Assembly (NCBI GenBank): GCA_008632985.1
Contig: QPGO01000153.1
Span: 124,001 to 182,534, forward strand
Direction of reading: 5' to 3'
DNA from: Psammoneis japonica
Taxonomy: Eukaryota
DNA: 58,534 nucleotides
A model generated the notes under the pieces. That model had not been told where the DNA came from. It ran no database searches and saw nothing but the letters and a program-made list of their open reading frames with translations. Of the stretch, positions 7,024-58,086 are shown piece after piece. The stretch's first letter is position 1; the number at the start of each line of letters is the position of its first letter. Made by a program: the position numbers and the translations under genes.

Positions 7024-8259
7024 TTACTCTGCAGCGTCCTTGCCTCTGTAGTTCTTGCACTCGTCCACGAGCCACCCAACAGCTTCTTCTGGTGTACCCT
7101 GCATAACTCCATGACCAAGATTCAAAAGATGCTTACCCGGTCCACCCGCTTTATCGATGCAATCCCGTACAGCTTGTTGGATCTGTTCCTTGGTACCAAA
7201 CAAAATGGTGGGATCAATGTTTCCGCTAATCGGCACATTGGGTCCCAACATTTGGCGTGCTTGAGCCATGTCGACACTCCAGTCCACGGCAATCATGTCC
7301 GCTCCCATGTCACGTTGAAGCTCCAAATACGATGATCCGCCATTGGCAAAGTAAATAACGGGAACGTCAGGATGCTTGTCCTTGATGATCTTGATGGCCT
7401 TTTGGGCAGCGGGTTTGGCATAGGCCTCAAAGTAGGCGGGAGACAATTGATGCGCCCAGCTTTCAAAGACTTGTACCACTTGTGCGCCGCATTCAATCTG
7501 ATGACAACCGTATTGGCCAATCATGTTGGCTAGTTTGTCCAGAAATTGAGACATGGCCATGTTGTTGCCATCCATGTCGGCCATGATTAGTTTCTTGGTT
7601 TCCAGACACGCCTTGGACGATTTGCCTTCAATCGTGTAGGCAGCCAGAGTAAAGGGAGCACCGACAAAACCAATCAAAGACGTGTTGGCTTCTTCGGCTT
7701 CCTTCGATAGGGTATTAAGAATCTTCTTGATAAAGGGAAGTTTGTCGTCAAAGTCAATGTTTTCATCCGACGTAAGGTTGGCAACATCCTCTTCTGTACG
7801 GATTTCTGTTGAGATTACCGGACCAATCCCCTTGACCACATCAAATTCAATTCCCAAGGTTGGAAGAGGCGTCAGAATATCAGAAAACATAATGATACCA
7901 TCCATACCGTACGCACGGTGGCACTGAAGACTTAGTTCGGTGGCCATTTCGGGTGTTTCCGATCTCTCCCGGAACGGGTACTTGTTGCTGTACTCACGAA
8001 AGGCAGCCATGTACCGACCAGCTTGACGCATCAACCAAACCGGTGTGCGTTCCACCTCTTCACCGCGAGCGGCACGAACCAAAATATCACGATCACCACT
8101 CGAAGCGGATGATGCACTGCTGCTGACCGCTGGTTCCTCCAACGTTGACGAGAACAAACGAGTGCTTGGCATGGAGTTTGGAGAAGCGACAAAGCTAAAG
8201 CCGTTTCCAAAAGTTGCAAAGCATGGTACTGCGACAAGTGATAGTGATGATACCCTCAT
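7024..8259 (-). CDS. hemE: Uroporphyrinogen decarboxylase, plastid-targeted
   Basis: PVWLMRQAGRY, FSDIL, GFVGAPFTLA, GNIDP, NLGHG motifs; bipartite presequence from ATG 8259. Confidence 0.96.
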   Translation of the reverse strand: MRVSSLSLVAVPCFATFGNGFSFVASPNSMPSTRLFSSTLEEPAVSSSASSASSGDRDILVRAARGEEVERTPVWLMRQAGRYMAAFREYSNKYPFRERSETPEMATELSLQCHRAYGMDGIIMFSDILTPLPTLGIEFDVVKGIGPVISTEIRTEEDVANLTSDENIDFDDKLPFIKKILNTLSKEAEEANTSLIGFVGAPFTLAAYTIEGKSSKACLETKKLIMADMDGNNMAMSQFLDKLANMIGQYGCHQIECGAQVVQVFESWAHQLSPAYFEAYAKPAAQKAIKIIKDKHPDVPVIYFANGGSSYLELQRDMGADMIAVDWSVDMAQARQMLGPNVPISGNIDPTILFGTKEQIQQAVRDCIDKAGGPGKHLLNLGHGVMQGTPEEAVGWLVDECKNYRGKDAAE

Positions 8260-8449
8260 GATTCCAACTGCAACAACCACACACAAGATCACGAAGTGTT
8301 GTCGTTCAACAAGGCGATCAACAATGAAGAGAAAATTGACCACTCAAAACTGACGATGGCCGATCCAAGTTGAACTTCAACATTTTTCGTAGTACATTTT
8401 CTACAGAGTATCAACGTAGCATCGGATGGGACCAGTCGACCTGTTCGAC

Positions 8450-37252: not shown

Positions 37253-40081
37253 TCAATCACTGTTCTGTGCGCCGCTGTCGTGATAGATCGTAAAGTCATC
37301 AAGGCCTGTTGAATCCAATCGTAAGCCTTTCTCATTAGCCAAATGAAGCAGACAGATAAAGTAAAAGGCCAACGAGACATCCGACTGGGATTGCGAGGAT
37401 TCCAGCTGTAGTACAGCCTCCTTGAATGATAGACACTTCTCCGTCGTAGGGTCGTCTTCCGTTTCGTCCTCCATATCAATCGACTTCTCCTCCTCGGCTT
37501 CTAAAGATTCATCCTTATCCTCTCCGATTTCGTCCGTAGCTGCTTTCGGTTTCGGAACAATAACAGTTTCGATTTCATTCCACAAATCCTTCTTGAGACG
37601 CTTGACGTCCACCTTTTTTGCCACAGTTGCATACCCGACTTGGATCTTGTCAACCTTTCGAATCCCCTCCAGTTCGCCAACAACAAAATCATCGTCGTCA
37701 TCCTCCCCGTATCCATCGTCATTCGCAAACATAAATCCCGGGCCATCGTCGTCATCCCCGTTAGAATCATTATCCCCGTCGTCGAAACCAAAGTAGTCGT
37801 GTCACTGAAACCTGTAGCAATGGATAAGGACGTAAACAGAGACTCAGGTATAAGTGGATGGAACGTAAGAGCTGTGGAATAAAGAGAATGATACTCACCA
37901 ACCGTCTTTGTATTCTTCTGGATTGAATCTTCTCCCGAAACAACTGAGGCAGTCGGACGCAGAAACAACTTGGACAGCTGCTCCATTCCAATACCAGCGT
38001 CAAGCGGCAGTAAGTTATCTTCCTTTGAATATTTCGTCTTTGTAGCATTAGGAAACGCAAGAGGGTCGGACGCAGCTCCACGTTTTGACTTCTTCGCCGC
38101 TGGTTTCTTTAAGATCTCCTTCAAGACGTTGGAAGACGGCGCGGATAAGTCCACAAGACACTTCTGCTCTTTTTTACTAGTCTTCTTCTTTCGGGCCTTC
38201 TTCTTGGTTGTCTTCTTTGCCTTTTCTTTCGCTGTCTTTGTCTTTTTCCAATGTGCCGATCCGGCCCACATGTTGCCACCAGTAATCTTATCAATTGCTG
38301 ACTGGTCAAAGTACTCATAGTCACCGCCTTGAGATATGGCTTCCCCAGAGGCCAGAGCATCCAGCAGAACGGTCGTATTGGACGGTCCAGAATCAAAAGC
38401 ATCTGCTGCATTTTCATCGGTGGTAGCAAAATCTGCGCCTTGGAAACTGACTCCAGAATACCGTGGGGCATTTTCATCCGAAGCCACAAAATCGTTGAAG
38501 GCAACGTCGTCGTCGTCATCATCATCAAAATCATCGTCCCCTCCACCAAAGTCGTCTGGAGCGTATTGGTTTTCACCTTCCTCGTCTTCTGTAAACAACG
38601 TTCTTCCACTCATCAAAGAGAGACTCGAACGGCCACCCATGTCCTTCAAGATGGACTTTTCCGCCTCTCTTTCTTCCTTGCGGGGAGTTGCGTACCGCTG
38701 CGACTGCATTTCAAAAGGGAACGGACAGCAAAGCAACGTAAGTCATAAGGTACACCCGCGTATGCAAGTTATACACGATAAGAACTTACCTTGGCTTTTG
38801 GAGTTAAATCTTCTACGTATCCATCGGCCTCCAACATTTCCTTTTCCTCGCGAAGAGCCTTGAGCTGTGGGACCAAAGAAAGCGATTCAAGTGTGGAATC
38901 ACCAATGAGGCTCTTGAGTTTGGTGGTGAGCAATGAAATGTCCACCATACCTTCTTCAGAACGGCGGTTCTCCTCGTCTTCTGGATTCTCTTCTTCCTTG
39001 CCTTCCTCTTTTTCGGGCTCTTCTTCCTCCTCTTTGGAGTCAAAGACGATACCACATCCGTCACTTCCAACACTAAGATTGACGAGCAAAAGACCCTTGG
39101 CTCCACCCTCATCGAACGTTTTCGACATTTTATGAAAGAGCGGATCAATATCGAAAGCCGAATCCAACTTGTTCATGTTGATGTTGGCTGCAATAGACAG
39201 CGTAGGAAGAGTACCAGTGAGATTCGCGAAACGAGAAAACAATACAATTCAAGGCCAATTTCTCTCTTACCGAGATTTGTTTCCAGGGTTTCCACATTGT
39301 TCTTACTGCTGCGAGACGCCGTGGGCCTCTCGTTGGAATCGTCCTGGGTAGCCTGTTCGTTGCGATCATCGCTTTCCTGACTGGATGATTTGTTGTTATC
39401 GGTACGATTCAGATTCGCCAACACCTTGTAAGACGTCAAGTGGACATCATCCACACGATACGAATAAATCTTGACACTAGCGTCAAGCGTACAGCTCGCC
39501 TTTGTAAAGTTGACACGGCGTTCTGTTGGTTGCGTGCTGTTGGCTGAAGCATGCGCTGTAGTACTCGTTGGGGAAGAGCGCCTATCGCTATCGTCGTCGT
39601 CCGCCAAGAACTTGTCAATGTTATCAATCAGATTCAGACCCCACGAGTTACCTGCATTGATTCTATTTTCGGCATTCATACGAATAGCACGGCGATACAT
39701 TTCACCCAATTGCTCCGAGTTTTGAGAAATCGCCTCCGTCTCATCATCCTCATCATCATCTGCAGTGTCGAATCGTCCAGAGAGCCTCAAGAATCTGGCA
39801 GACGAGCGACGACGGCGGCGTTGATATGTCTGACGCTTGTCCTTTTTCGCCGAGGATGGCGTCATGGTCTTTCGCTTCATGGCTTCCTCCAGCGTCAAAC
39901 TCCTTTCGTTTTCATCCTCCGATTCAATCGATTCATCGCTGTCTTCTTCATCACTGCTCTCCATGACAAGCAGATTCTTCTTGTTCTTGGAGCTCGTCTT
40001 TAACATAACATCCTCGTCACTACTATCATCATTGTGACGGTTCTCGATATTGTCCAGGTCGGCCAAGACGGACGACGCCAT
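37253..40081 (-). CDS. NCAPH: Condensin I kleisin subunit H (barren)
   Basis: NRINAGNSWGLNLID, NFTKASCTLDASVKIYSYRVD, DPLFHKMSKTFDEGGAKGLL, NMWAGSAHWK, YATVAKKVDVKRLK, FICLLHLANEKGL; introns 39270-39188, 38789-38704, 37898-37812; one frameshift near 37800. Confidence 0.93.
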
Positions 40082-40414
40082 GGTGCTGTCTGTTATTTGC
40101 CGCTGCAGCCAAGTTTTGAGCTCGGCGATTTTTTTTGCCGTTGGTTTTTTTCGATCGGTCAAAATTCAAAAAATGATGACGTCGAAATGACGTTTCTCTT
40201 TTTATGTTGTATGGGCAATTGTGCTGTGCTCGCATCGCGCGCGCTCGCTCGCTCTTCTTTTTGCACATTCGCGCGAGATATGATGACGTGTTCCCGCTTT
40301 CAGCTTGCCGATGATCCCACTTTTTCTTCGCCGAGCGCTTCACCATGGCCAATAGCGGCACCTATGATCAGTAAAGAAGACTTCAGACGCACTAGGAAAA
40401 GAGGTCTTTGAACC

Positions 40415-51280: not shown

Positions 51281-53385
51281 TCAGGTCCATTGACTCAAAA
51301 GCGGTGCCAGATACACTGCTAGACCCGGAATCAGACCCCAGACCTCAAAGCAAAAGCCCTGAAGTACCCACAAGAGATCGAGACAGTGCCAGGCGGGTAG
51401 CATGTAGATTATACCGTCGGAAAGAGCATAACCATCCACCACTGACTGAGGGTCGGAGTGAGGGCCACGCATTCGAAACTGGTATGCGGCAAATTGGGAG
51501 CAGTAAGCCTTGACACAGGCCACAGGAGCATGCAAGAAGAACCTCACGAAGTTTGGCTCGCAGCCGACGCAGTGGCGAGCAAGATAGTTTGTATAAAACC
51601 AGACACCTGACGTGGCGTTGTAACAGTAATGAGTCCTCGCTGACTCGCATATATGGGCTTGCATCTCTACCTCACTGATAAGGTTTCTCTTCTTGGAACA
51701 TATCAAGGCAAACCAGCGTGCCTGCATTTCAAAACCCATAATGAGGGAGCCCACTTGTCCTCGCATAAAGCCAATGAATGCCATGTCTCGAAGATCCGGG
51801 TGGAATACTCCAAGATACCGTTCACATACCTTATTTGTCATGTGCGCTTTCGGAAGGAATGGAAACTTTGACGGCTGATATCCCGTCATTAGCAGAATGG
51901 CATCGTACTGCTGTATGCTGCCGTCATCCAGAACAACCGCTCCATCATTGTTGATGCATTTGACACCACTTCGAATGCTGCACTTCTCTTTGTTCTGACT
52001 CAGCGCAAAGACAAGGTTGTCGCTCTTGGTGGTTTGGACCGATGAGCAAATCGTTCTTACACCTGTCAAGCATTCAGATATGTATTTTTTGGTGAAGAGT
52101 AACCGTAGGTTCCACCAGATGGATGGAGCCCAAAGCATTTTGCCTCCATACTGACGAGCAAACGCGTTGTTGAAGAAGGCGGTGGTCACTATGACGAGCT
52201 TGTAGGTTGCCCAGCGAGCAAAACGAGGTGCTTGATAGAGAACACGGGTCTCGTAATAGTCAGGTGGAAGTCCCCACATGCTCCGCGGTAGAACTTGAAG
52301 CGGATTTCGGAGTGACACGTCACAAACGTTTACCTTGTCACAGAGATCCAAGACAACATCTGACGCGGTCTCCCCGCCTCCAACCACCAAGACCCGTTTG
52401 TCTCTGAACCTTTCAAAATCGTCTTCATCAAAAAGCTCGGACGAATGGATAATGTTTCCTTTGAAATTATCCTGACCCTCAAACTTAATAATCCTTGGAA
52501 CAGCTGTTTGCCCAGAGCAGACAGCTACTTTGTCAAACTCCTGCACAGTTTCAACTTTGCTACTTGTCTGTACCGTCTTGATCTGCCATCGACCGTCCTT
52601 CATCTTTGTAACTTCCTTCACAATCGTGTTGAGTTTGACGTACTGATCAACTCCAAAGTACTTGGCATACCTTGAAAGATAGTCCATGAAGGCTTCTTGA
52701 CTCGCAAAGTAGGGATCTGGTCCTGGATACTCGGCTTGAATGGGAAAGTCCGAAAAGGCCGTGTTTAATGCTGAGCTTGAGGTCATTGTGTTTGCAAGAG
52801 CTTGTCCTCGGCCGCACTGCTTTCCAGTTCGCTGCCAGACTCCGCCAATGGCAGAGCTCTGTTCAAAGACCACGGGTACATGACCTTCGGCAATCAACTC
52901 TTTGGCTGTCACCAAACCAGCTTTCAAAAAGTAGCAGCAGAAGACGTGCCAGTGAGATATGCGAGTTGTAGAAGGTGACGCGTTGAAGTCGATTACGTAC
53001 CTGGGCCCGCACCGATCACAGCAACTGTTAGTTTCTCTTTTGGAGGAACACTGTCCTTTGGATCCTCGTCGGGCTGAAGGTATAGTAGCACTACCCGCGC
53101 AAACACATACGTCAAGATCAGGTAAAGAATGGAATCAAGGGACATTACCTTCATGCGATAGCTCAAAACTAGTGGCCAGGCCGCGAGAAGAAGGATCAGC
53201 ACATTGAGTGGTATCAAGGTGATCAACATTATGAAATTGACAAATGCCTGGTACAACGGACTCCACCAACCATCACCGCGTGAAGCCCACTCCAAATCAG
53301 CCTGGTGGAGAGCGTTTCGTCGCGTGGGTGTCAAACCCGATCGACACTTCAAGCTTTCATCGCGTCCCATCACGGTTGATGTCAT
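51281..53385 (-). CDS. Flavin-containing monooxygenase with N-terminal TM helices
   Basis: GAGPAGL across intron 53000-52921, GGVW, FKGNIIHS, VLVVGGGETASD, MTGY, EMQARW. Confidence 0.92.
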
Positions 53386-53820: not shown

Positions 53821-55956
53821 TTACATAATTATTATCATTGCCAAACAAACACTTAGAAACAGGAGATAGCTTGTAGGACGAAGAGTGGCGGTTGCGGACG
53901 TCGAGGTGCATGAATAGCCCGTGCTTTCGTCTCCAACACAAACTTGTCCTTCACTACACCCCGCGTTGAATTCCTCAAGGCATTGGCATGTGCCTTCGAA
54001 GCACCGAGTTGTACTACAGTCAAGGGTAATTTCAGGATCGCACGTTGCCCCGACCGGCAAGCCGCAAAAGGGAGGCGCGTCTGGCAAAAACTGCAAGACA
54101 GTACAGGTGCGGCCACTGTTGCAACCATCGTTGGTGTCCAGGTTGCATTGGCAGTTTCCTGGTGTACCAGGAGGGACCAAGCCAAAAAAGCAAACGTTGC
54201 TTTCACAGTCAGCATTTTCGCGACATGTTGAACCGACCGGTAATAAAGCAGAAACTGTTTCGCAAGTCCCGTTCTGCAAACAACTTCCTCGGCAACAGCC
54301 ATCCTGAAGAAAACACTCGGTATCAGGAGCAGGTGGCTGACAGGCAGCACCGTCCGGAAGAGCACAATAGGGAGGCACAGTTGCCCTTGATTCGGAAATG
54401 CCAGCAACACACTCGGTCGCACTATCGCATCCGGTATTGAGCCTTGTGTTGCACGAACAAACGCCGCCGTCTCCAAAACCAAAAAAGCAATTATCGCTTA
54501 AACAATCCATGTTTTGTTTGCATACTGATCCAATCGGTGAGCCTTCTCCTGGCTCGGACGTATCGTCGTTACAGGTATACCCGGTATTTTCATCTCCCAC
54601 ACAAACCTGCCCTTCCGCACAACCGGCGTTGAAGTCCTTGTGGCATTGGCATGTTCCGTTGAAGCACTGAGTTGAACTGCAGTCCAATGGATTTTCAGCA
54701 TCACAACTTGCCCCAATAGGTAATCCACAAAAGGCTGGTGCATCCATCACAGTCTCCACAAATGTACACGTACGACCACCCGTACAACCAACGTTGGTAT
54801 CTACATTGCATTGACAGCTTCCCGGCGAGCCGGGAGGGATCAAGCCATAAAAGCAAACATTGCTTTCACAGTCTGTATTAATGCGACATGGAGATCCAAA
54901 CGGTAAATTGGAGATTGTTTCACAGGTTCCATCCTGCAAACAACTTGCTCGGCAACAACCACCGTCTTGAAGAAAGCACTCGGTATCTACAGCCGGTTGA
55001 CTACACGCAGCGCCGTCTGGGAGAGCACAATAGGGAGGGACAGCTGACGATGATTCGGAAATACCAACAACACACTCGGTTCCAGTATTGCATCCAGTAT
55101 TGAGCCGCGGGTTGCACGTACACACGCCGCCGTCTCCAAAACCAACAAAGCAAAAGTCGCTAACGCATTCTGACTTTTCTTGGCAAGCCGCTCCAATCGG
55201 CAAGAGTTCACCAACCAGTTCGGACGTATCCTTACAGGTATACCCCACCTCTTCGTCACCAACACAAACGTCATCACCCGTACATCCCAAATTGACCAAG
55301 TTGATGTTGCACTGACAGGTCCCATTCCAACAAACCGTCGTGTCACAATCCAACGCTCTTGTGTCATTGCACGCGGCACCCATGGGAAGCGCACAGGCCG
55401 GAGGTCCATCGGCAAAGAATTCAAAAAATTGACACGTGCGATTCTCATTGGGAGGACAACCCGCATTGGTATTGACATTGCATTGACAACGTCCCGGTGT
55501 ATCGGCAGGTTGAATGGATCGAAAACAAAAATTAGAATCACAATCCGAAGCTATGCCGCATGTTTCTCCAATCGGTCGAGGAATATATGCTTTACAAATT
55601 CCTCCGTCGGTGCTACATTTGCCCTTGCAACATTGTTCTGTCAAGAAACAATCGGATCCTTGTTGTTGTAAATCACAAGGCTGTCCCTCTTGCAAGGCAC
55701 AGAACGGAGGCAGTGCCGGACTTGGCTGTGAAATGTCAATACTGCAAGTCGCAGGACTGGAGCAGCCTTGGTTTGTATCCGTGTTGCAGGTACAAACTCC
55801 TTCGGTTTCAAATCCAAAAAAGCAAGCTCTCGTTTCACAATCAGAATCTTGTCGACAGACCGATCCAATCGGCTCTTGAGCGAAAACTGTTGTTGTTGTT
55901 GTTGAGAGGAGAGCAACAACAATGAGGAGGGTAGCGGCGAGATGCTGCAAATTCAT
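53821..55956 (-). CDS. Cys-rich repeat cell-surface protein, probably GPI-anchored
   Basis: Signal peptide from ATG 55956; three tandem super-repeats of P(I/V)GxxCxxxxDCxSxxCF..CxCN..PPFC modules; hydrophobic C-terminus after a Ser/Thr linker. Confidence 0.88.
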   Translation of the reverse strand: MNLQHLAATLLIVVALLSTTTTTVFAQEPIGSVCRQDSDCETRACFFGFETEGVCTCNTDTNQGCSSPATCSIDISQPSPALPPFCALQEGQPCDLQQQGSDCFLTEQCCKGKCSTDGGICKAYIPRPIGETCGIASDCDSNFCFRSIQPADTPGRCQCNVNTNAGCPPNENRTCQFFEFFADGPPACALPMGAACNDTRALDCDTTVCWNGTCQCNINLVNLGCTGDDVCVGDEEVGYTCKDTSELVGELLPIGAACQEKSECVSDFCFVGFGDGGVCTCNPRLNTGCNTGTECVVGISESSSAVPPYCALPDGAACSQPAVDTECFLQDGGCCRASCLQDGTCETISNLPFGSPCRINTDCESNVCFYGLIPPGSPGSCQCNVDTNVGCTGGRTCTFVETVMDAPAFCGLPIGASCDAENPLDCSSTQCFNGTCQCHKDFNAGCAEGQVCVGDENTGYTCNDDTSEPGEGSPIGSVCKQNMDCLSDNCFFGFGDGGVCSCNTRLNTGCDSATECVAGISESRATVPPYCALPDGAACQPPAPDTECFLQDGCCRGSCLQNGTCETVSALLPVGSTCRENADCESNVCFFGLVPPGTPGNCQCNLDTNDGCNSGRTCTVLQFLPDAPPFCGLPVGATCDPEITLDCSTTRCFEGTCQCLEEFNAGCSEGQVCVGDESTGYSCTSTSATATLRPTSYLLFLSVCLAMIIIM

Positions 55957-56435
55957 GGTAAGACACAATAAAAATTCCTCTCTGGCAAAATAGAAGAAAA
56001 TTTTTGTAGGGTATTTCCTCAAGGACAGTCACCAGTAGACTCTGAGAAATTGTGTCAACCTATGGCGGCTTTTTGTTCTTGATGAGACGTGACGCTGTTC
56101 GTTGTTGCTGCGGCTGCTGCAACACCCGTCGCTGTTGGTTTGTTTTGAAGCAAGAGAAAAAAGGGACGTGTGAACTTGGAACGGGCGCAGTCTGAAAGTC
56201 GCGCGAAGATCGATCGGTTCTCGCTGGTCATGGATTGATTCGTGACTAGCGATCACGACTAAAAACATTAGCTTTTATCCATAAATGGATAAAACGGAAA
56301 AATTATGGTCCCACATTTTCTCCAAAAACGTGACACGGTCCCTCATTTTTTGGCCTTTGATGCGAACCCTCTCGTGCCGATCAGCTTCGTCCATGTTCTC
56401 ACAAAAAAAACTACCTTTCTCAAAAACAGCTCAAC

Positions 56436-58086
56436 ATGAATCTGTTCTTCCTTTGTTCACTACTCCTTCCGATTTCCAAGGAAAGCCCAGTCGTCGTTAC
56501 GGCCTTTTCGGCACAACCCGTTTCTTTGAAAACAACAAGCCCCTTTGTGTCTAGACGGATCGTTCCGAAAAATCCCATACACAGCAGCGCTTTATTAATG
56601 TCGGCAAGCAACGGTTCATTTGAAAAACGACGACGACCACCACGATTGGTGGTGGTGGGTGGTGGCGTGGGTGGCTTGTCCACCGCTTTGGATGCGCGCA
56701 ACGAACTTGGAACCAAAGTTGAGGTGATTGTCGTTTCCGATCGAGACATTTTCAGCTTTACACCGAGCAATCCGTGGGTGGCCGTCAAGACGAGGGAACC
56801 AAAGGATATTCAACTAAATTTGCAAGATCTTCTTCCCAAACATGGCATTGAGTTTGTGCATGGCCGTGCACAAAGGTTGGATCCGAAACGACAGCAATTG
56901 ACATTGACTGACAATAACAAGCAAACGACGATTGTCGATTATGACTACTTGGTCATTGCCACGGGCCCACGGTTGGCCTTTGAAGAAATAGCTGGCATGA
57001 AGGAATCGGGAAAATCGGTTTGTACCACTCCCCACGCACAAGACGCCGCCACGGCGTTGCAACGATTGATTGCGCAACCGGGACCCGTCGTGGTGGGTGC
57101 GACACAGGGTGCATCGTGTTTTGGACCCGCCTATGAATACGCCTTTTTGTTACAAATGCCCTAAAGGAGGCCGGGGGGCAATCCTTGGTCGATCAATGCC
57201 CCATGACCTTTGTCACGCCCGAACCGTACATTGGTCATTTGGGTTTGGATGGAGCTGGAATTCTCGTAATGTCTTGATTGAAACGTTGGGTCGGCACAAT
57301 GTCGAGTACATGGCGAATTCTCGAGTGAAAAAGGTGGAACCCGACAGTGTTCACGTTCAAGAATTGCACAAGAAAACCGGCAAGGTCATCAAGGACGCCA
57401 AGTTGACTAGCCGATTGACCATGTTGATTCCACCCTTTCGTGGATACGACGTTTGGAAGTCCGTTCCCGGTCTGACCGATGAAAAAGGTCTGGTGTTGGT
57501 GAATGATCACCAGCAATCCAAAGCCTTTGATAACATTTTTGCAGTCGGAGTGTGTGTTCACTTATCCAGACTCCCGTCATTCGATACTCCCGTAGCTCTT
57601 GGCGTGCCAAAGACTGGGTATGTGTAGTTTTGTGTTGTCCGTGCACATTTCGTATACTGTCGTTTGCTCGTTTTTCACTCACAATGTACTCCTTGCTTTT
57701 GCATTTCTAGATACATGATTGAAAGCATGGGTACCGCCGTTGTTCACAATATTGATCGCTTGATTGAAGAATCCAAAAACAAAAAGGAAGAGCGGGGTAA
57801 AGTGAAACTGACGAGTAAGCCCTCCTTGCATGGATTGTGTATAACGGATTTTGGTGGCGGCGAAGGCGCCATTTTTCTTACGGTTCCTCAAATATCACCA
57901 CGATCGATTGACGTAACGGTCGACAATGGATTTGTCTCGTGGCTATCCAAAGTACTTTTCGAAAAATACTTTTTGTTGAAACTAAAATTGGGCGACACCA
58001 ATCCTTGGATTGAACAGGTGCTTTTGAAGTTTGTTGGGATTGAACGTACGCGAGAAGAGCGTGTGACACCGGGCATTGCCACCTAG
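56436..58086 (+). CDS. sqr: Sulfide:quinone oxidoreductase, bacterial type I/IV-like, with a bipartite presequence
   Basis: GGGVGG, FTPSNPWV, YDYLVIATGP, SVC, SCFGPAYE, EPYIGHLGLDG, PPFRG, VPKTGYMIESM (across intron 57618-57710), CITDFG; 1-nt deletions at ~57155 and ~57260. Confidence 0.9.

What the first reader, a model, noticed from the sequence alone, without database searches (positions are those of the whole stretch)
56436..58086. Plastid-targeted bacterial-type sulfide:quinone oxidoreductase in an alga
Seen: an SQR with three Cys motifs (SVC, SCFGPAYE, CITDFG) and PKTGYMIESM, a spliceosomal intron, and a signal peptide followed by TA-FSAQP and a basic/Ser-rich stretch. Established: these motifs typify bacterial SqrA/SqrD (Aquifex, Rhodobacter, cyanobacteria, Acidithiobacillus), not mitochondrial type II SQOR. 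Cyanobacterial SqrA feeds sulfide electrons to plastoquinone for anoxygenic photosynthesis. Inference: a horizontally acquired, domesticated SQR that could detoxify sulfide or support PSII-independent electron flow in the plastid of a sediment-dwelling diatom.
Basis: partly seen in the sequence, partly recalled or inferred. Interest (0 to 1): 0.78.

Follow-up and report, generated by a model that had tools for sequence, protein, structure and literature searches.

The report
Diatom plastid-type sulfide:quinone oxidoreductase gene
A diatom nuclear gene encodes a bacterial-style enzyme that oxidises hydrogen sulfide and carries a chloroplast address label; the gene is intact (its two apparent breaks are assembly errors) and belongs to a family shared by many diatoms that is annotated in databases but seems unstudied.

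Summary
Window 56436-58086 (+) encodes a 519-residue sulfide:quinone oxidoreductase (SQR) in two exons, with a GT-AG intron at 57618-57710. The two frameshifts are assembly errors. An independent contig built from a DNA run (depth about 53) carries one extra A behind 57153 and one behind 57258, which restores the frame. All pieces match solved SQRs recalled as type I (3hyv, 3sz0/3kpk; E 1e-43, 1e-17, 1e-17). Human SQOR scores only 6e-6. The three catalytic cysteines are present. The contig is eukaryotic and diatom-like.

The N-terminus has a hydrophobic signal segment, then VTA|F, then a Ser-rich basic stretch. The same layout occurs in 49 of 49 full-length relatives and in the plastid enzyme URO-D of this window. 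Plastid targeting is therefore well supported, but it remains a prediction.

The protein sits in a single eukaryotic clade whose named members are all diatoms. The Thalassiosira pseudonana member is already annotated as SQR. The bacterial donor is unresolved, and a sister relation to cyanobacteria is not rejected (AU p 0.59). "Horizontally acquired" and "sediment-dwelling" are not shown. Nine literature searches found no study of this family. Verdict: a real, intact new member of a known but uncharacterised family.

The parts
56436..57617 (+). Exon 1 of the SQR gene (residues 1-395 plus the first two bases of the Gly396 codon). The window sequence lacks one A in each of two A-runs.
   Evidence: ORF listing and translations. 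PDB alignments are colinear with 3kpk_A residues 4-171 and 208-322.
56436..56504 (+). Predicted signal peptide (residues 1-23, MNLFFLCSLLLPISKESPVVVTA), with predicted cleavage before Phe24.
   Evidence: Hydrophobic 8-residue window averages 2.81 (Kyte-Doolittle), followed by VTA|FSAQP. The same layout is found in 49 of 49 full-length homologues, against a shuffle mean of 8.0. This is my own heuristic; SignalP and ASAFind were not available.
56505..56633 (+). Transit-peptide-like stretch (residues 24-66): 9 Ser, 2 Thr, 7 Lys+Arg and 1 acidic residue among 43.
   Evidence: Composition count. Two alleles here differ by 6 substitutions and two in-frame 3-nt indels.
57153..57157 (+). Apparent frameshift 1. 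The A-run is one base short in the assembly; reads give CAA AAT GCC.
   Evidence: table 4: 'put in behind 57153: A', depth 53.2 of 53.2. Frame change seen.
57258..57261 (+). Apparent frameshift 2. The A-run is one base short in the assembly; reads give GGA AAT TCT.
   Evidence: table 4: 'put in behind 57258: A', depth 53.2 of 53.2. Frame change seen.
57021..57023 (+). Cys196 codon (SVC), aligned to Cys128 of the 3kpk-type SQR (native numbering).
   Evidence: Counted along the alignment. Conserved in 59/59 eukaryotic-clade, 30/30 cyanobacterial and 93/93 proteobacterial rows.
57117..57119 (+). Cys228 codon (GASCFGPAYE), aligned to Cys160 of the 3kpk-type SQR.
   Evidence: alignment. Conserved in 58/59, 30/30 and 93/93 rows.
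57197..57199 (+). Cys255 codon (QCPMTF), a cysteine specific to the eukaryotic clade.
   Evidence: Cys in 59/59 eukaryotic-clade rows. Val in 28/30 cyanobacterial and 89/93 proteobacterial rows.
57618..57710 (+). Spliceosomal intron, 93 nt, GTATGT...CTAG, phase 2.
   Evidence: Sequence. Read-through hits a stop. The spliced junction is colinear with 3kpk_A residues 322|323. The DNA contig keeps the intron (no joints).
57711..58086 (+). Exon 2 (last base of the Gly396 codon, residues 397-519, stop TAG).
   Evidence: Aligns to 3szf_A residues 326-431, E 1.2e-17.
57838..57840 (+). Cys438 codon (GLCITDFG), aligned to Cys356 of 3kpk_A.
   Evidence: Counted along the alignment. Conserved in 58/59 (the other row has a gap), 30/30 and 93/93 rows.
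57940..58059 (+). C-terminal segment WLSKVLFEKYFLLKLKLGDTNPWIEQVLLKFVGIERTREE. It matches the C-terminal part of the solved bacterial SQR, which I recall forms the membrane-binding amphipathic helices.
   Evidence: Aligned to about residues 390-431 of 3szf_A. The membrane-anchor role of this region is recalled from the structure papers and was not tested here.

Best explanation
This is an intact, nuclear, two-exon diatom gene for a type I (SqrA-like) sulfide:quinone oxidoreductase made as a 519-residue precursor.

Shown:
- The gene is whole in reads.
- Its sequence is colinear with solved bacterial SQRs.
- It keeps the FAD-binding GxGxxG motif and the three redox cysteines.
- It belongs to one eukaryotic clade whose named members are all diatoms.

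Inferred:
- The N-terminal signal peptide (1-23) takes the precursor into the ER that surrounds the plastid. Cleavage exposes Phe24, and the Ser-rich basic stretch (24 to about 66) carries the protein across the inner plastid membranes.
- The mature flavoprotein of about 450 residues sits on a stroma-facing membrane through its C-terminal amphipathic helices.
- There it oxidises H2S/HS- at the Cys228/Cys438 pair to sulfane sulfur and passes two electrons through FAD to plastoquinone.
- Plastoquinol is then re-oxidised by cytochrome b6f and PSI in the light, or by a plastid terminal oxidase in the dark.
- The most likely role is removal of sulfide, which poisons PSII and comes from the surroundings or from plastid sulfite reduction. 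Sulfide-fed PSI electron flow would be a possible by-product.
For: Intactness: an extra A at both break sites in a contig of word depth 53. A second allele differs only by in-frame changes.

Family: PDB hits of 4.6e-43 (3hyv), 8.2e-43 (3szf), 1.1e-17 and 1.2e-17 for three pieces, colinear with chain residues 4-171, 208-322 and 323-428. Human SQOR scores 5.7e-6 and flavocytochrome c 2e-7. The three cysteines are conserved in 59/59, 58/59 and 58/59 eukaryotic-clade rows.

Eukaryotic, diatom host: the intron. Neighbours are condensin Cnd2, MGAT2, URO-D and LRR genes. Every named hit in the URO-D listing is a diatom, at 74-87% identity.

Clade: eukaryotic rows form one clade with support 100 in FastTree (59 rows of 215) and in IQ-TREE LG+C20 (26 rows of 81).

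Targeting: 49 of 49 full-length homologues have a hydrophobic segment followed by [ASGCT]|[F35, W8, L5, Y1]. 44 of 49 are aromatic at +1, against shuffle means of 8.0 (maximum 15) and 20.6 (maximum 31). The plastid tetrapyrrole enzyme URO-D in the same window carries GNG|FSF after a signal-like segment.

Transcription in relatives: the Thalassiosira, Amphora and Nitzschia members come from culture transcriptomes (MMETSP).
Against: - No RNA data exist for this gene.
- Localisation rests on my own rule, not on SignalP or ASAFind, and on no experiment.
- In 4 of the 49 homologues only 5-10 residues lie between the predicted cleavage site and the first beta-strand, which is short for a transit peptide.
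- 7 of 59 rows have only 8-15 residues before the Rossmann fold. They may be truncated gene models or untargeted forms.
- No enzymatic activity, quinone preference or membrane association was tested.
- Plastoquinone as the acceptor is inferred only from the predicted compartment.
- Phaeodactylum does not appear among the named hits, so the enzyme may be dispensable in some diatoms.
Confidence: 0.7

Rival explanations
1. Same enzyme, different compartment. The signal peptide delivers it only to the ER or secretory path or to the periplastidial space, or the protein goes to mitochondria. There it would feed ubiquinone or act on sulfide outside the plastid.
For: Localisation is only predicted. 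4 of 49 homologues have 5-10 residues between the predicted cleavage site and the fold. Eukaryotic SQRs known so far are mitochondrial (recalled).
Against: An aromatic residue or Leu at +1 after the signal segment occurs in 49 of 49 homologues, and the window's own plastid enzyme URO-D has the same layout. From recall, periplastidial and secreted diatom proteins lack the +1 aromatic. A cleavable hydrophobic N-terminus is not a mitochondrial presequence.
Confidence: 0.15
2. Origin rival. The gene is not a late horizontal transfer. It descends from the cyanobacterial ancestor of plastids, through the red-algal endosymbiont, and was lost from most other algae.
For: With eukaryotes and cyanobacteria forced into one clade, the log-likelihood was 7.6 higher than for the free quick tree, and AU p was 0.586. 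32 of 301 sampled cyanobacterial genomes carry a homologue at E<=1e-40.
Against: Among named hits in two searches, every eukaryote is a diatom, apart from one Alexandrium-labelled protein that is nearly identical to the T. pseudonana sequence. No red or green alga was listed. Identity to the best cyanobacterium is 41%, no higher than to proteobacteria at 45%. FastTree instead puts the clade beside the 3hyv-like pair (98).
Confidence: 0.2
3. Decaying pseudogene. The two frameshifts are real and the locus is not expressed.
For: The window sequence as given has two frame changes. No RNA run was listed for the stretch.
Against: A read-derived contig at word depth 53 carries the missing A at both sites. 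Both sites are A-runs. All catalytic residues are kept. The second allele differs by in-frame indels only.
Confidence: 0.02
4. Bacterial contaminant contig or mis-assembly carrying a bacterial sqr.
For: The mature part is 45% identical to proteobacterial SQRs.
Against: A GT-AG intron interrupts the frame. There is a 70-residue presequence. Neighbours are eukaryote-only genes such as condensin subunit 2 and MGAT2. GC content is an even 0.45-0.49 across the window. The protein is nested in a eukaryotic clade.
Confidence: 0.01

Closest known systems
Thalassiosira pseudonana CCMP1335 'sulfide:quinone oxidoreductase, partial' (XP_002289088.1 / EED94524.1; full 489-aa model in EukProt)
   Same: It falls in the same eukaryotic clade. 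It keeps the same three cysteines and the clade-specific Cys, and has the same kind of presequence (ASS|FVANG).
   Different: It lies in a different sub-branch of the clade. The best members of the clade reach only 56-57% identity to the window protein. By its coordinates (1470 nt for 489 codons plus stop) the T. pseudonana model has no intron. Its function has not been studied as far as my searches show.
Acidithiobacillus ferrooxidans SQR, type I
   Same: Colinear over chain residues 4-428. Cys128, Cys160 and Cys356 all have counterparts. The C-terminal FEKYF...helical segment is conserved.
   Different: It is a bacterial protein that reduces ubiquinone (recalled) and has no presequence and no intron. 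The window protein has a 9-residue insert before the third Cys and the extra Cys255.
Aquifex aeolicus SQR, type I (PDB 3hyv; organism recalled)
   Same: Best N-terminal hit, E 4.6e-43. Its close relative P0138 (E 1e-234 to 3hyv) is sister to the eukaryotic clade in FastTree (98).
   Different: That sister position is lost under the LG+C20 model. Identity is 41.6%. The C-terminal match is weaker, at 1.5e-7.
Cyanobacterial type I SQR, used for sulfide-driven PSI photosynthesis (Oscillatoria limnetica and Geitlerinema, recalled; general role stated in passages of PMC11350084)
   Same: It would work in the same way if the diatom enzyme sits on thylakoids, passing electrons from sulfide to plastoquinone to PSI. 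It has the same three cysteines (30/30).
   Different: It forms a separate, fully supported clade at 36-41% identity. The diatom protein is nuclear-encoded and would have to be imported across four membranes.
Mitochondrial type II SQOR (human, PDB 6oi5, 6mp5)
   Same: Same flavoprotein disulfide reductase superfamily and same overall reaction.
   Different: E is only 5.7e-6, and only over the Rossmann part (query residues 71-191). The C-terminal pieces give no hit. The window protein is not a member.

Membership tests
Type I sulfide:quinone oxidoreductase (SqrA) | N-terminal FAD-binding Rossmann fold with GxGxxG | tested here: met
   VVVGGGVGG at residues 72-80. Pfam Pyr_redox_2 scores 1.5e-15 over residues 70-222.
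Type I sulfide:quinone oxidoreductase (SqrA) | Three conserved cysteines (A. ferrooxidans Cys128, Cys160, Cys356) | tested here: met
   Cys196, Cys228 and Cys438 align to these positions. They are conserved in 59/59, 58/59 and 58/59 clade rows.
Type I sulfide:quinone oxidoreductase (SqrA) | Closer in sequence to type I structures than to other SQR types or to flavocytochrome c | tested here: met
   E 1e-43 for 3hyv and 3sz0-type chains, against 4.6e-17 (3h8i), 2e-7 (flavocytochrome c) and 6e-6 (human SQOR) for the same piece. The C-terminal pieces hit almost only the type I chains. The type labels of these entries are recalled.
Type I sulfide:quinone oxidoreductase (SqrA) | Falls inside the type I clade in a rooted tree that includes types II-VI | tested here: inconclusive
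   It groups with 3hyv-like, Rhodobacter-type proteobacterial and cyanobacterial sequences. No labelled type II-VI outgroup was in the tree, and the root is a midpoint only.
Type I sulfide:quinone oxidoreductase (SqrA) | C-terminal amphipathic helices for monotopic membrane binding | tested here: met
   Residues 472-511 align to about residues 390-431 of 3szf_A with FEKYF, K.K.G and the following helix conserved. The membrane role of this region is recalled.
Type I sulfide:quinone oxidoreductase (SqrA) | Sulfide-dependent quinone reduction with micromolar sulfide affinity | not testable with these tools
   Needs an enzyme assay.
Diatom plastid-targeted nuclear proteins (bipartite presequence, ASAFAP-type motif) | Signal peptide followed by F, W, Y or L at +1 of the cleavage site | tested here: met
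   VTA|FSAQP after a hydrophobic segment. The layout is found in 49/49 homologues and is far above the shuffle controls. URO-D of the same window has GNG|FSF. This is my own heuristic rule, not ASAFind.
Diatom plastid-targeted nuclear proteins (bipartite presequence, ASAFAP-type motif) | Transit-peptide-like stretch: hydroxylated, net positive, few acidic residues | tested here: met
   11 Ser+Thr, 7 Lys+Arg and 1 Glu among 43 residues.
Diatom plastid-targeted nuclear proteins (bipartite presequence, ASAFAP-type motif) | Experimental plastid localisation | not testable with these tools
   Needs a GFP fusion or proteomics.
Mitochondrial type II SQOR | Sequence membership in the SQOR/type II group | tested here: not met
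   E is 5.7e-6 and limited to the Rossmann region. The C-terminal pieces give no hit.

The most novel reading that the evidence does not exclude
Diatom plastids contain an active type I SQR that feeds electrons from sulfide into the plastoquinone pool. Diatoms exposed to sulfide could then keep PSI turning and make ATP, and perhaps fix carbon, without PSII. That would be a cyanobacterium-style, sulfide-driven photosynthetic mode inside a eukaryotic organelle, conserved since before the split of thalassiosiroid and pennate diatoms.
Probability: 0.25. Interest if true: 0.8.

Novelty: new member of a known kind. Interest (0 to 1): 0.5.

Why it matters
Sulfide blocks PSII and cytochrome oxidase. 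Diatoms nevertheless thrive at oxic-sulfidic interfaces such as mats, sediments and upwelling zones. A plastid-addressed, high-affinity bacterial-type SQR conserved across diatoms would give them a dedicated plastid sulfide sink and a route from sulfide to plastoquinone. A 2024 review of plant sulfur metabolism states that SQR and the other oxidative dissimilatory sulfur enzymes were not integrated into plants (passage read in PMC11350084), so a plastid SQR in a major algal group would amend that picture. The hypothesis can be tested directly in T. pseudonana, which is transformable and carries an orthologue. For this window the practical lesson is smaller: the assembly carries homopolymer indel errors that break real genes.

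Tried and rejected
- Whole-genome search of the window's own assembly: no genome is held. A second SQR copy or a type II SQOR in this organism could therefore not be sought.
- RNA evidence: no RNA holder was listed for the stretch. Expression and splicing of this gene are untested.
- Runs X2 and X3 laid nothing on the stretch.
- Intron comparison in other diatoms: the single metagenome scan, made with a eukaryote-only profile, returned 80 loci that are all bacterial-length relatives at 39-47% identity. Only the coordinates of the T. pseudonana model bear on intron age.
- The careful IQ-TREE search (bootstraps) did not finish in two 300-s calls. I report the quick tree (SH-aLRT only), FastTree and the AU test.
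- NDH-2-like ORFs from two cyanobacterial genomes were considered as an outgroup and rejected as too distant.
- NCBIfam holds no type I SQR model. The best hit was the type III selenoprotein model, at 54.5 bits against a cut-off of 525.
- Earlier notes of this scan: there were none for this genome and none on diatom SQRs. The sequence look-up gave only bacterial sqr loci.
- Literature: nine searches and passages read in nine papers found no study of a diatom type I or plastid SQR. Subscription journals and supplements were not searched.
- Structure prediction and complex prediction were not run. Sequence identity to solved SQRs made them unnecessary, and the joined protein is not accepted by those tools.
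Full report
**What is in the sequence**

Window 56436-58086 on the + strand holds an open frame that starts at the first ATG after a stop. It reads MNLFFLCSLLLPISKESPVVVTAFSAQP... and continues into a flavoprotein with VVVGGGVGG, SVC, GASCFGPAYEYA, PKTG, YMIESM and GLCITDFG. As given, the sequence changes frame twice, near 57155 and near 57260. It also needs one intron, because read-through after PKTG gives YV-stop. The intron is 57618-57710: 93 nt, GTATGT...CTAG, phase 2. The split codon GG|A encodes Gly396. The two exons join residues that align to consecutive residues 322 and 323 of the solved chain 3kpk_A, so nothing is missing or added at the junction.

**The frameshifts are assembly errors**

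One public DNA run (coded X1) holds 92% of the sampled words of this stretch. Its read-derived contig covers 56639-58250 at a word depth of 53.2. Across that span it differs from the window by one substitution and two insertions: an A behind 57153 and an A behind 57258. Both sites are A-runs. With the extra bases the codons read CAA AAT GCC and GGA AAT TCT. This puts ...FLLQ-N-ALKEAGG... and ...GAG-N-SRNV... in register with every homologue. X1 may come from the same organism as the assembly, so it is not an independent strain. It is an independent reconstruction from reads.

The same run shows two alleles over 56546-56668, at depths 32 and 31. They differ by six substitutions and two 3-nt indels, all in frame and all within the presequence. 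The gene is therefore intact, and the pseudogene reading is rejected.

**What family it is**

- The N-terminal piece hits chain 3hyv_A at E 4.6e-43 and the 3sz0/3kpk group at about 1e-42. The next hits are 3h8i at 4.6e-17, flavocytochrome c subunits at about 1e-7 and human SQOR at 5.7e-6.
- The third and fourth pieces hit the 3sz0/3kpk group at about 1e-17 and 3hyv more weakly. They hit essentially nothing else.
- From memory, 3hyv is the Aquifex aeolicus type I enzyme, 3sz0 and 3kpk are the Acidithiobacillus ferrooxidans type I enzyme, and human SQOR is type II.
- Counting along the printed alignments, Cys196, Cys228 and Cys438 of the 519-residue model correspond to Cys128, Cys160 and Cys356 of the A. 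ferrooxidans enzyme.
- In my alignment of 214 rows these cysteines are kept in 59/59, 58/59 and 58/59 rows of the eukaryotic clade, and in all 30 cyanobacterial and 93 proteobacterial rows.
- The C-terminal FEKYF...helical segment is also conserved.

This is a type I, SqrA-like SQR and not a type II SQOR. One caveat applies: my trees held no labelled outgroup of types II-VI, so placement inside type I in a rooted sense is inferred from the E-value ranking.

**Host and context**

No whole genome is held for the window. The other long frames of the window include condensin subunit 2, N-acetylglucosaminyltransferase II, uroporphyrinogen decarboxylase, an LRR protein and an FMO-like protein. GC content is an even 0.45-0.49. 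In the URO-D search, every named hit among the 120 listed is a diatom (Chaetoceros, Trieres, Thalassiosira, Cyclotella, Attheya, Seminavis and others), at 74-87% identity. The organism is a diatom whose own proteins are not in the collection at 90% identity. Nothing tells whether it lives in sediment.

**Relatives**

A search with the N-terminal piece scored 8000 candidates and listed the best 120. The top 58 rows or so are 427-569 residues long, at 49-66% identity. The named ones are Amphora coffeiformis, Nitzschia sp. RCC80, N. inconspicua, a Bacillariaceae MAG, Cyclotella cf. meneghiniana and C. atomus. Bacterial proteins of 425-426 residues follow.

A cluster look-up showed that one of these clusters holds the Thalassiosira pseudonana CCMP1335 protein, annotated 'sulfide:quinone oxidoreductase, partial' (XP_002289088.1). 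It also holds a full 489-residue EukProt model whose coordinates span 1470 nt, which means no intron.

A profile search added Epithemia clementina and an 'Alexandrium tamarense' entry. That entry is almost identical to the T. pseudonana sequence and is most simply a mislabelled contaminant. Phaeodactylum does not appear among the named hits. I can only say it was not found in these listings.

**Presequence**

I applied my own rule. It asks for a hydrophobic 8-residue window averaging at least 2.0 (Kyte-Doolittle), then a small residue, then F, W or Y at +1 (L as a fall-back), outside the hydrophobic core.

- Of the 59 rows of the eukaryotic clade, 49 start with Met and have at least 20 residues before the Rossmann fold. 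All 49 satisfy the rule (F 35, W 8, L 5, Y 1).
- 44 of the 49 satisfy the rule with an aromatic residue at +1. Shuffled presequences give a mean of 8.0 (maximum 15). Shuffles that keep the hydrophobic segment give a mean of 20.6 (maximum 31).
- The other ten rows were set aside. Seven have only 8-15 residues upstream, one starts with Val, one starts inside the Rossmann motif, and one has no Rossmann motif by my pattern.
- The window protein gives VTA|FSAQP, followed by 43 residues with 11 Ser+Thr, 7 Lys+Arg and one Glu.
- As an internal control, the plastid tetrapyrrole enzyme URO-D of this window begins MRVSSLSLVAVPCFATFGNG|FSFVASP.

From established knowledge, this is the bipartite 'ASAFAP' layout used by diatoms for stromal import. 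It is a strong prediction, not a localisation. In four homologues only 5-10 residues separate the predicted cleavage site from the fold, which is a caveat.

**Origin**

- Prokaryote genomes: among 600 matching stretches, the best 80 are at 39-46% identity to a diatom member. Two are cyanobacteria, and most of the rest are Pseudomonadota.
- Cyanobacteria: of 301 sampled genomes, 32 have a homologue at E<=1e-40.
- FastTree on 215 rows: the eukaryotic clade (59 rows, 100) sits beside a pair that includes P0138 (98). P0138 scores E 1.4e-234 to 3hyv. Cyanobacteria (100) and proteobacteria lie apart. Two rows need comment. One mis-extracted ORF, L055, showed a branch length of 6.2 and was dropped afterwards. 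P0120, first labelled eukaryotic by its length, fell among Woeseiaceae and was relabelled bacterial.
- IQ-TREE on a thinned set: I reduced the rows to 81 by identity thresholds of about 0.6 and ran the quick IQ-TREE search under LG+C20+F+G4. It keeps the eukaryotic clade (26 rows, 100, stem 0.78) and the cyanobacterial clade (100). It leaves the eukaryotes in an unresolved bush with proteobacteria and several unnamed lineages. The careful search did not finish.
- AU test: forcing eukaryotes and cyanobacteria together gave a log-likelihood 7.6 higher than the free quick tree, with AU p 0.586.
- Nine further long eukaryote-like proteins also fall inside the clade (35 tips, 99).

So the family has one origin in eukaryotes, older than the split of Thalassiosirales and raphid pennates, and it came from a bacterial type I SQR. 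Whether that was a horizontal transfer or inheritance through the plastid is open. The diatom-only distribution among named hits favours transfer, and I put endosymbiotic inheritance at about 0.2.

**Is it known?**

The protein family and its chemistry are textbook. The diatom branch is present in public annotation. Nine full-text searches and passages read in nine papers turned up no work on a diatom type I or plastid SQR. The papers were PMC11736642, PMC11350084, PMC8651085, PMC13384644, PMC4582958, PMC3749208, PMC5462543 and the two preprints 10.1101/2020.01.24.918219 and 10.1101/2023.01.30.526236. Neither the diatom HGT survey nor the ochrophyte plastid-proteome paper mentions sulfide or quinone in its main text; their supplements were not read. 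PMC11350084 states that SQR and related oxidative enzymes were not integrated into plants. Subscription journals are outside the library, so 'unstudied' means 'not found in these searches'.

**How it most likely works**

Shown here: an intact gene, a type I SQR sequence with its full catalytic equipment, and a conserved plastid-type presequence.

Inferred: co-translational entry into the chloroplast ER; cleavage before Phe24; import to the stroma; monotopic binding to thylakoid or inner-envelope membrane; oxidation of sulfide to sulfane sulfur at Cys228/Cys438; two-electron reduction of plastoquinone through FAD.

Sulfide could come from outside the cell or from plastid sulfite reduction. The conservative reading is detoxification and sulfide homeostasis. 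The bold reading is sulfide-fed PSI electron flow as in some cyanobacteria, to which I give about 0.25.

**Verdict**

It is a new member of an annotated but uncharacterised diatom family. The interest lies in the family rather than in this locus.

Noticed in passing
window 57197-57199 (Cys255, motif QCP[IM]TF): A fourth cysteine is invariant in 59/59 rows of the eukaryotic clade. The same column is Val in 28/30 cyanobacterial and 89/93 proteobacterial rows. It is a clade signature that could be a redox-regulation site. Two divergent long relatives (P0447, P0128) seem to lack the motif.
   Followed up: partly
window 56546-56668: The reads hold two alleles at about equal depth (32 and 31). They differ by 6 substitutions and two in-frame 3-nt indels, in an AGC repeat and a CGA/CCA repeat, all inside the presequence. 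The organism is heterozygous here, and the transit peptide tolerates length change.
   Followed up: partly
window 57153-57157 and 57258-57261, and probably elsewhere: Both assembly errors are one-base deletions in A-runs. Other genes of this assembly may be broken in the same way. For example, condensin Cnd2 is split between frames 37501-38742 and 39173-40165 on the - strand, which could be an intron or an indel.
   Followed up: no
window 53821-56028 (-): The divergent neighbour, about 480 bp upstream of the SQR start codon, is a 735-residue frame. It has a signal-like N-terminus and many repeats of a Cys-rich module (C..D/N.C.S..C.F...G.C.CN...N.GC). It has no Pfam match at E<=1e-5.
   Followed up: no
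window 7024-8343 (-): This is uroporphyrinogen decarboxylase (Pfam 4.8e-110), with a presequence MRVSSLSLVAVPCFATFGNG|FSFV of the plastid type. It served as an internal control for the targeting rule.
   Followed up: yes
window 51281-53134 (-): An FMO-like flavin monooxygenase (Pfam 1.1e-49) lies two genes upstream of the SQR. No link to sulfur metabolism was examined.
   Followed up: no
protein P0442 (EukProt label Alexandrium tamarense): This protein is almost identical to the T. pseudonana SQR cluster sequence except for an internal gap. It is probably a diatom contaminant in a dinoflagellate data set, not a dinoflagellate SQR.
   Followed up: partly
L116 (G133:C3:189670-190929) and L117 (G194:C21:9725-10984): Two cyanobacterial SQR homologues each carry one in-frame TGA inside the match. 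This could be a selenocysteine, a sequencing error or a pseudogene. NCBIfam knows a selenoprotein subtype only for type III SQR.
   Followed up: no
eukaryotic SQR clade: The clade splits into two branches. One (97-99 support) holds Thalassiosira, Cyclotella, Nitzschia and the Bacillariaceae MAG. The other (weakly supported) holds the window protein and Amphora. Raphid pennates occur in both, which hints at an old duplication or at poor resolution.
   Followed up: no
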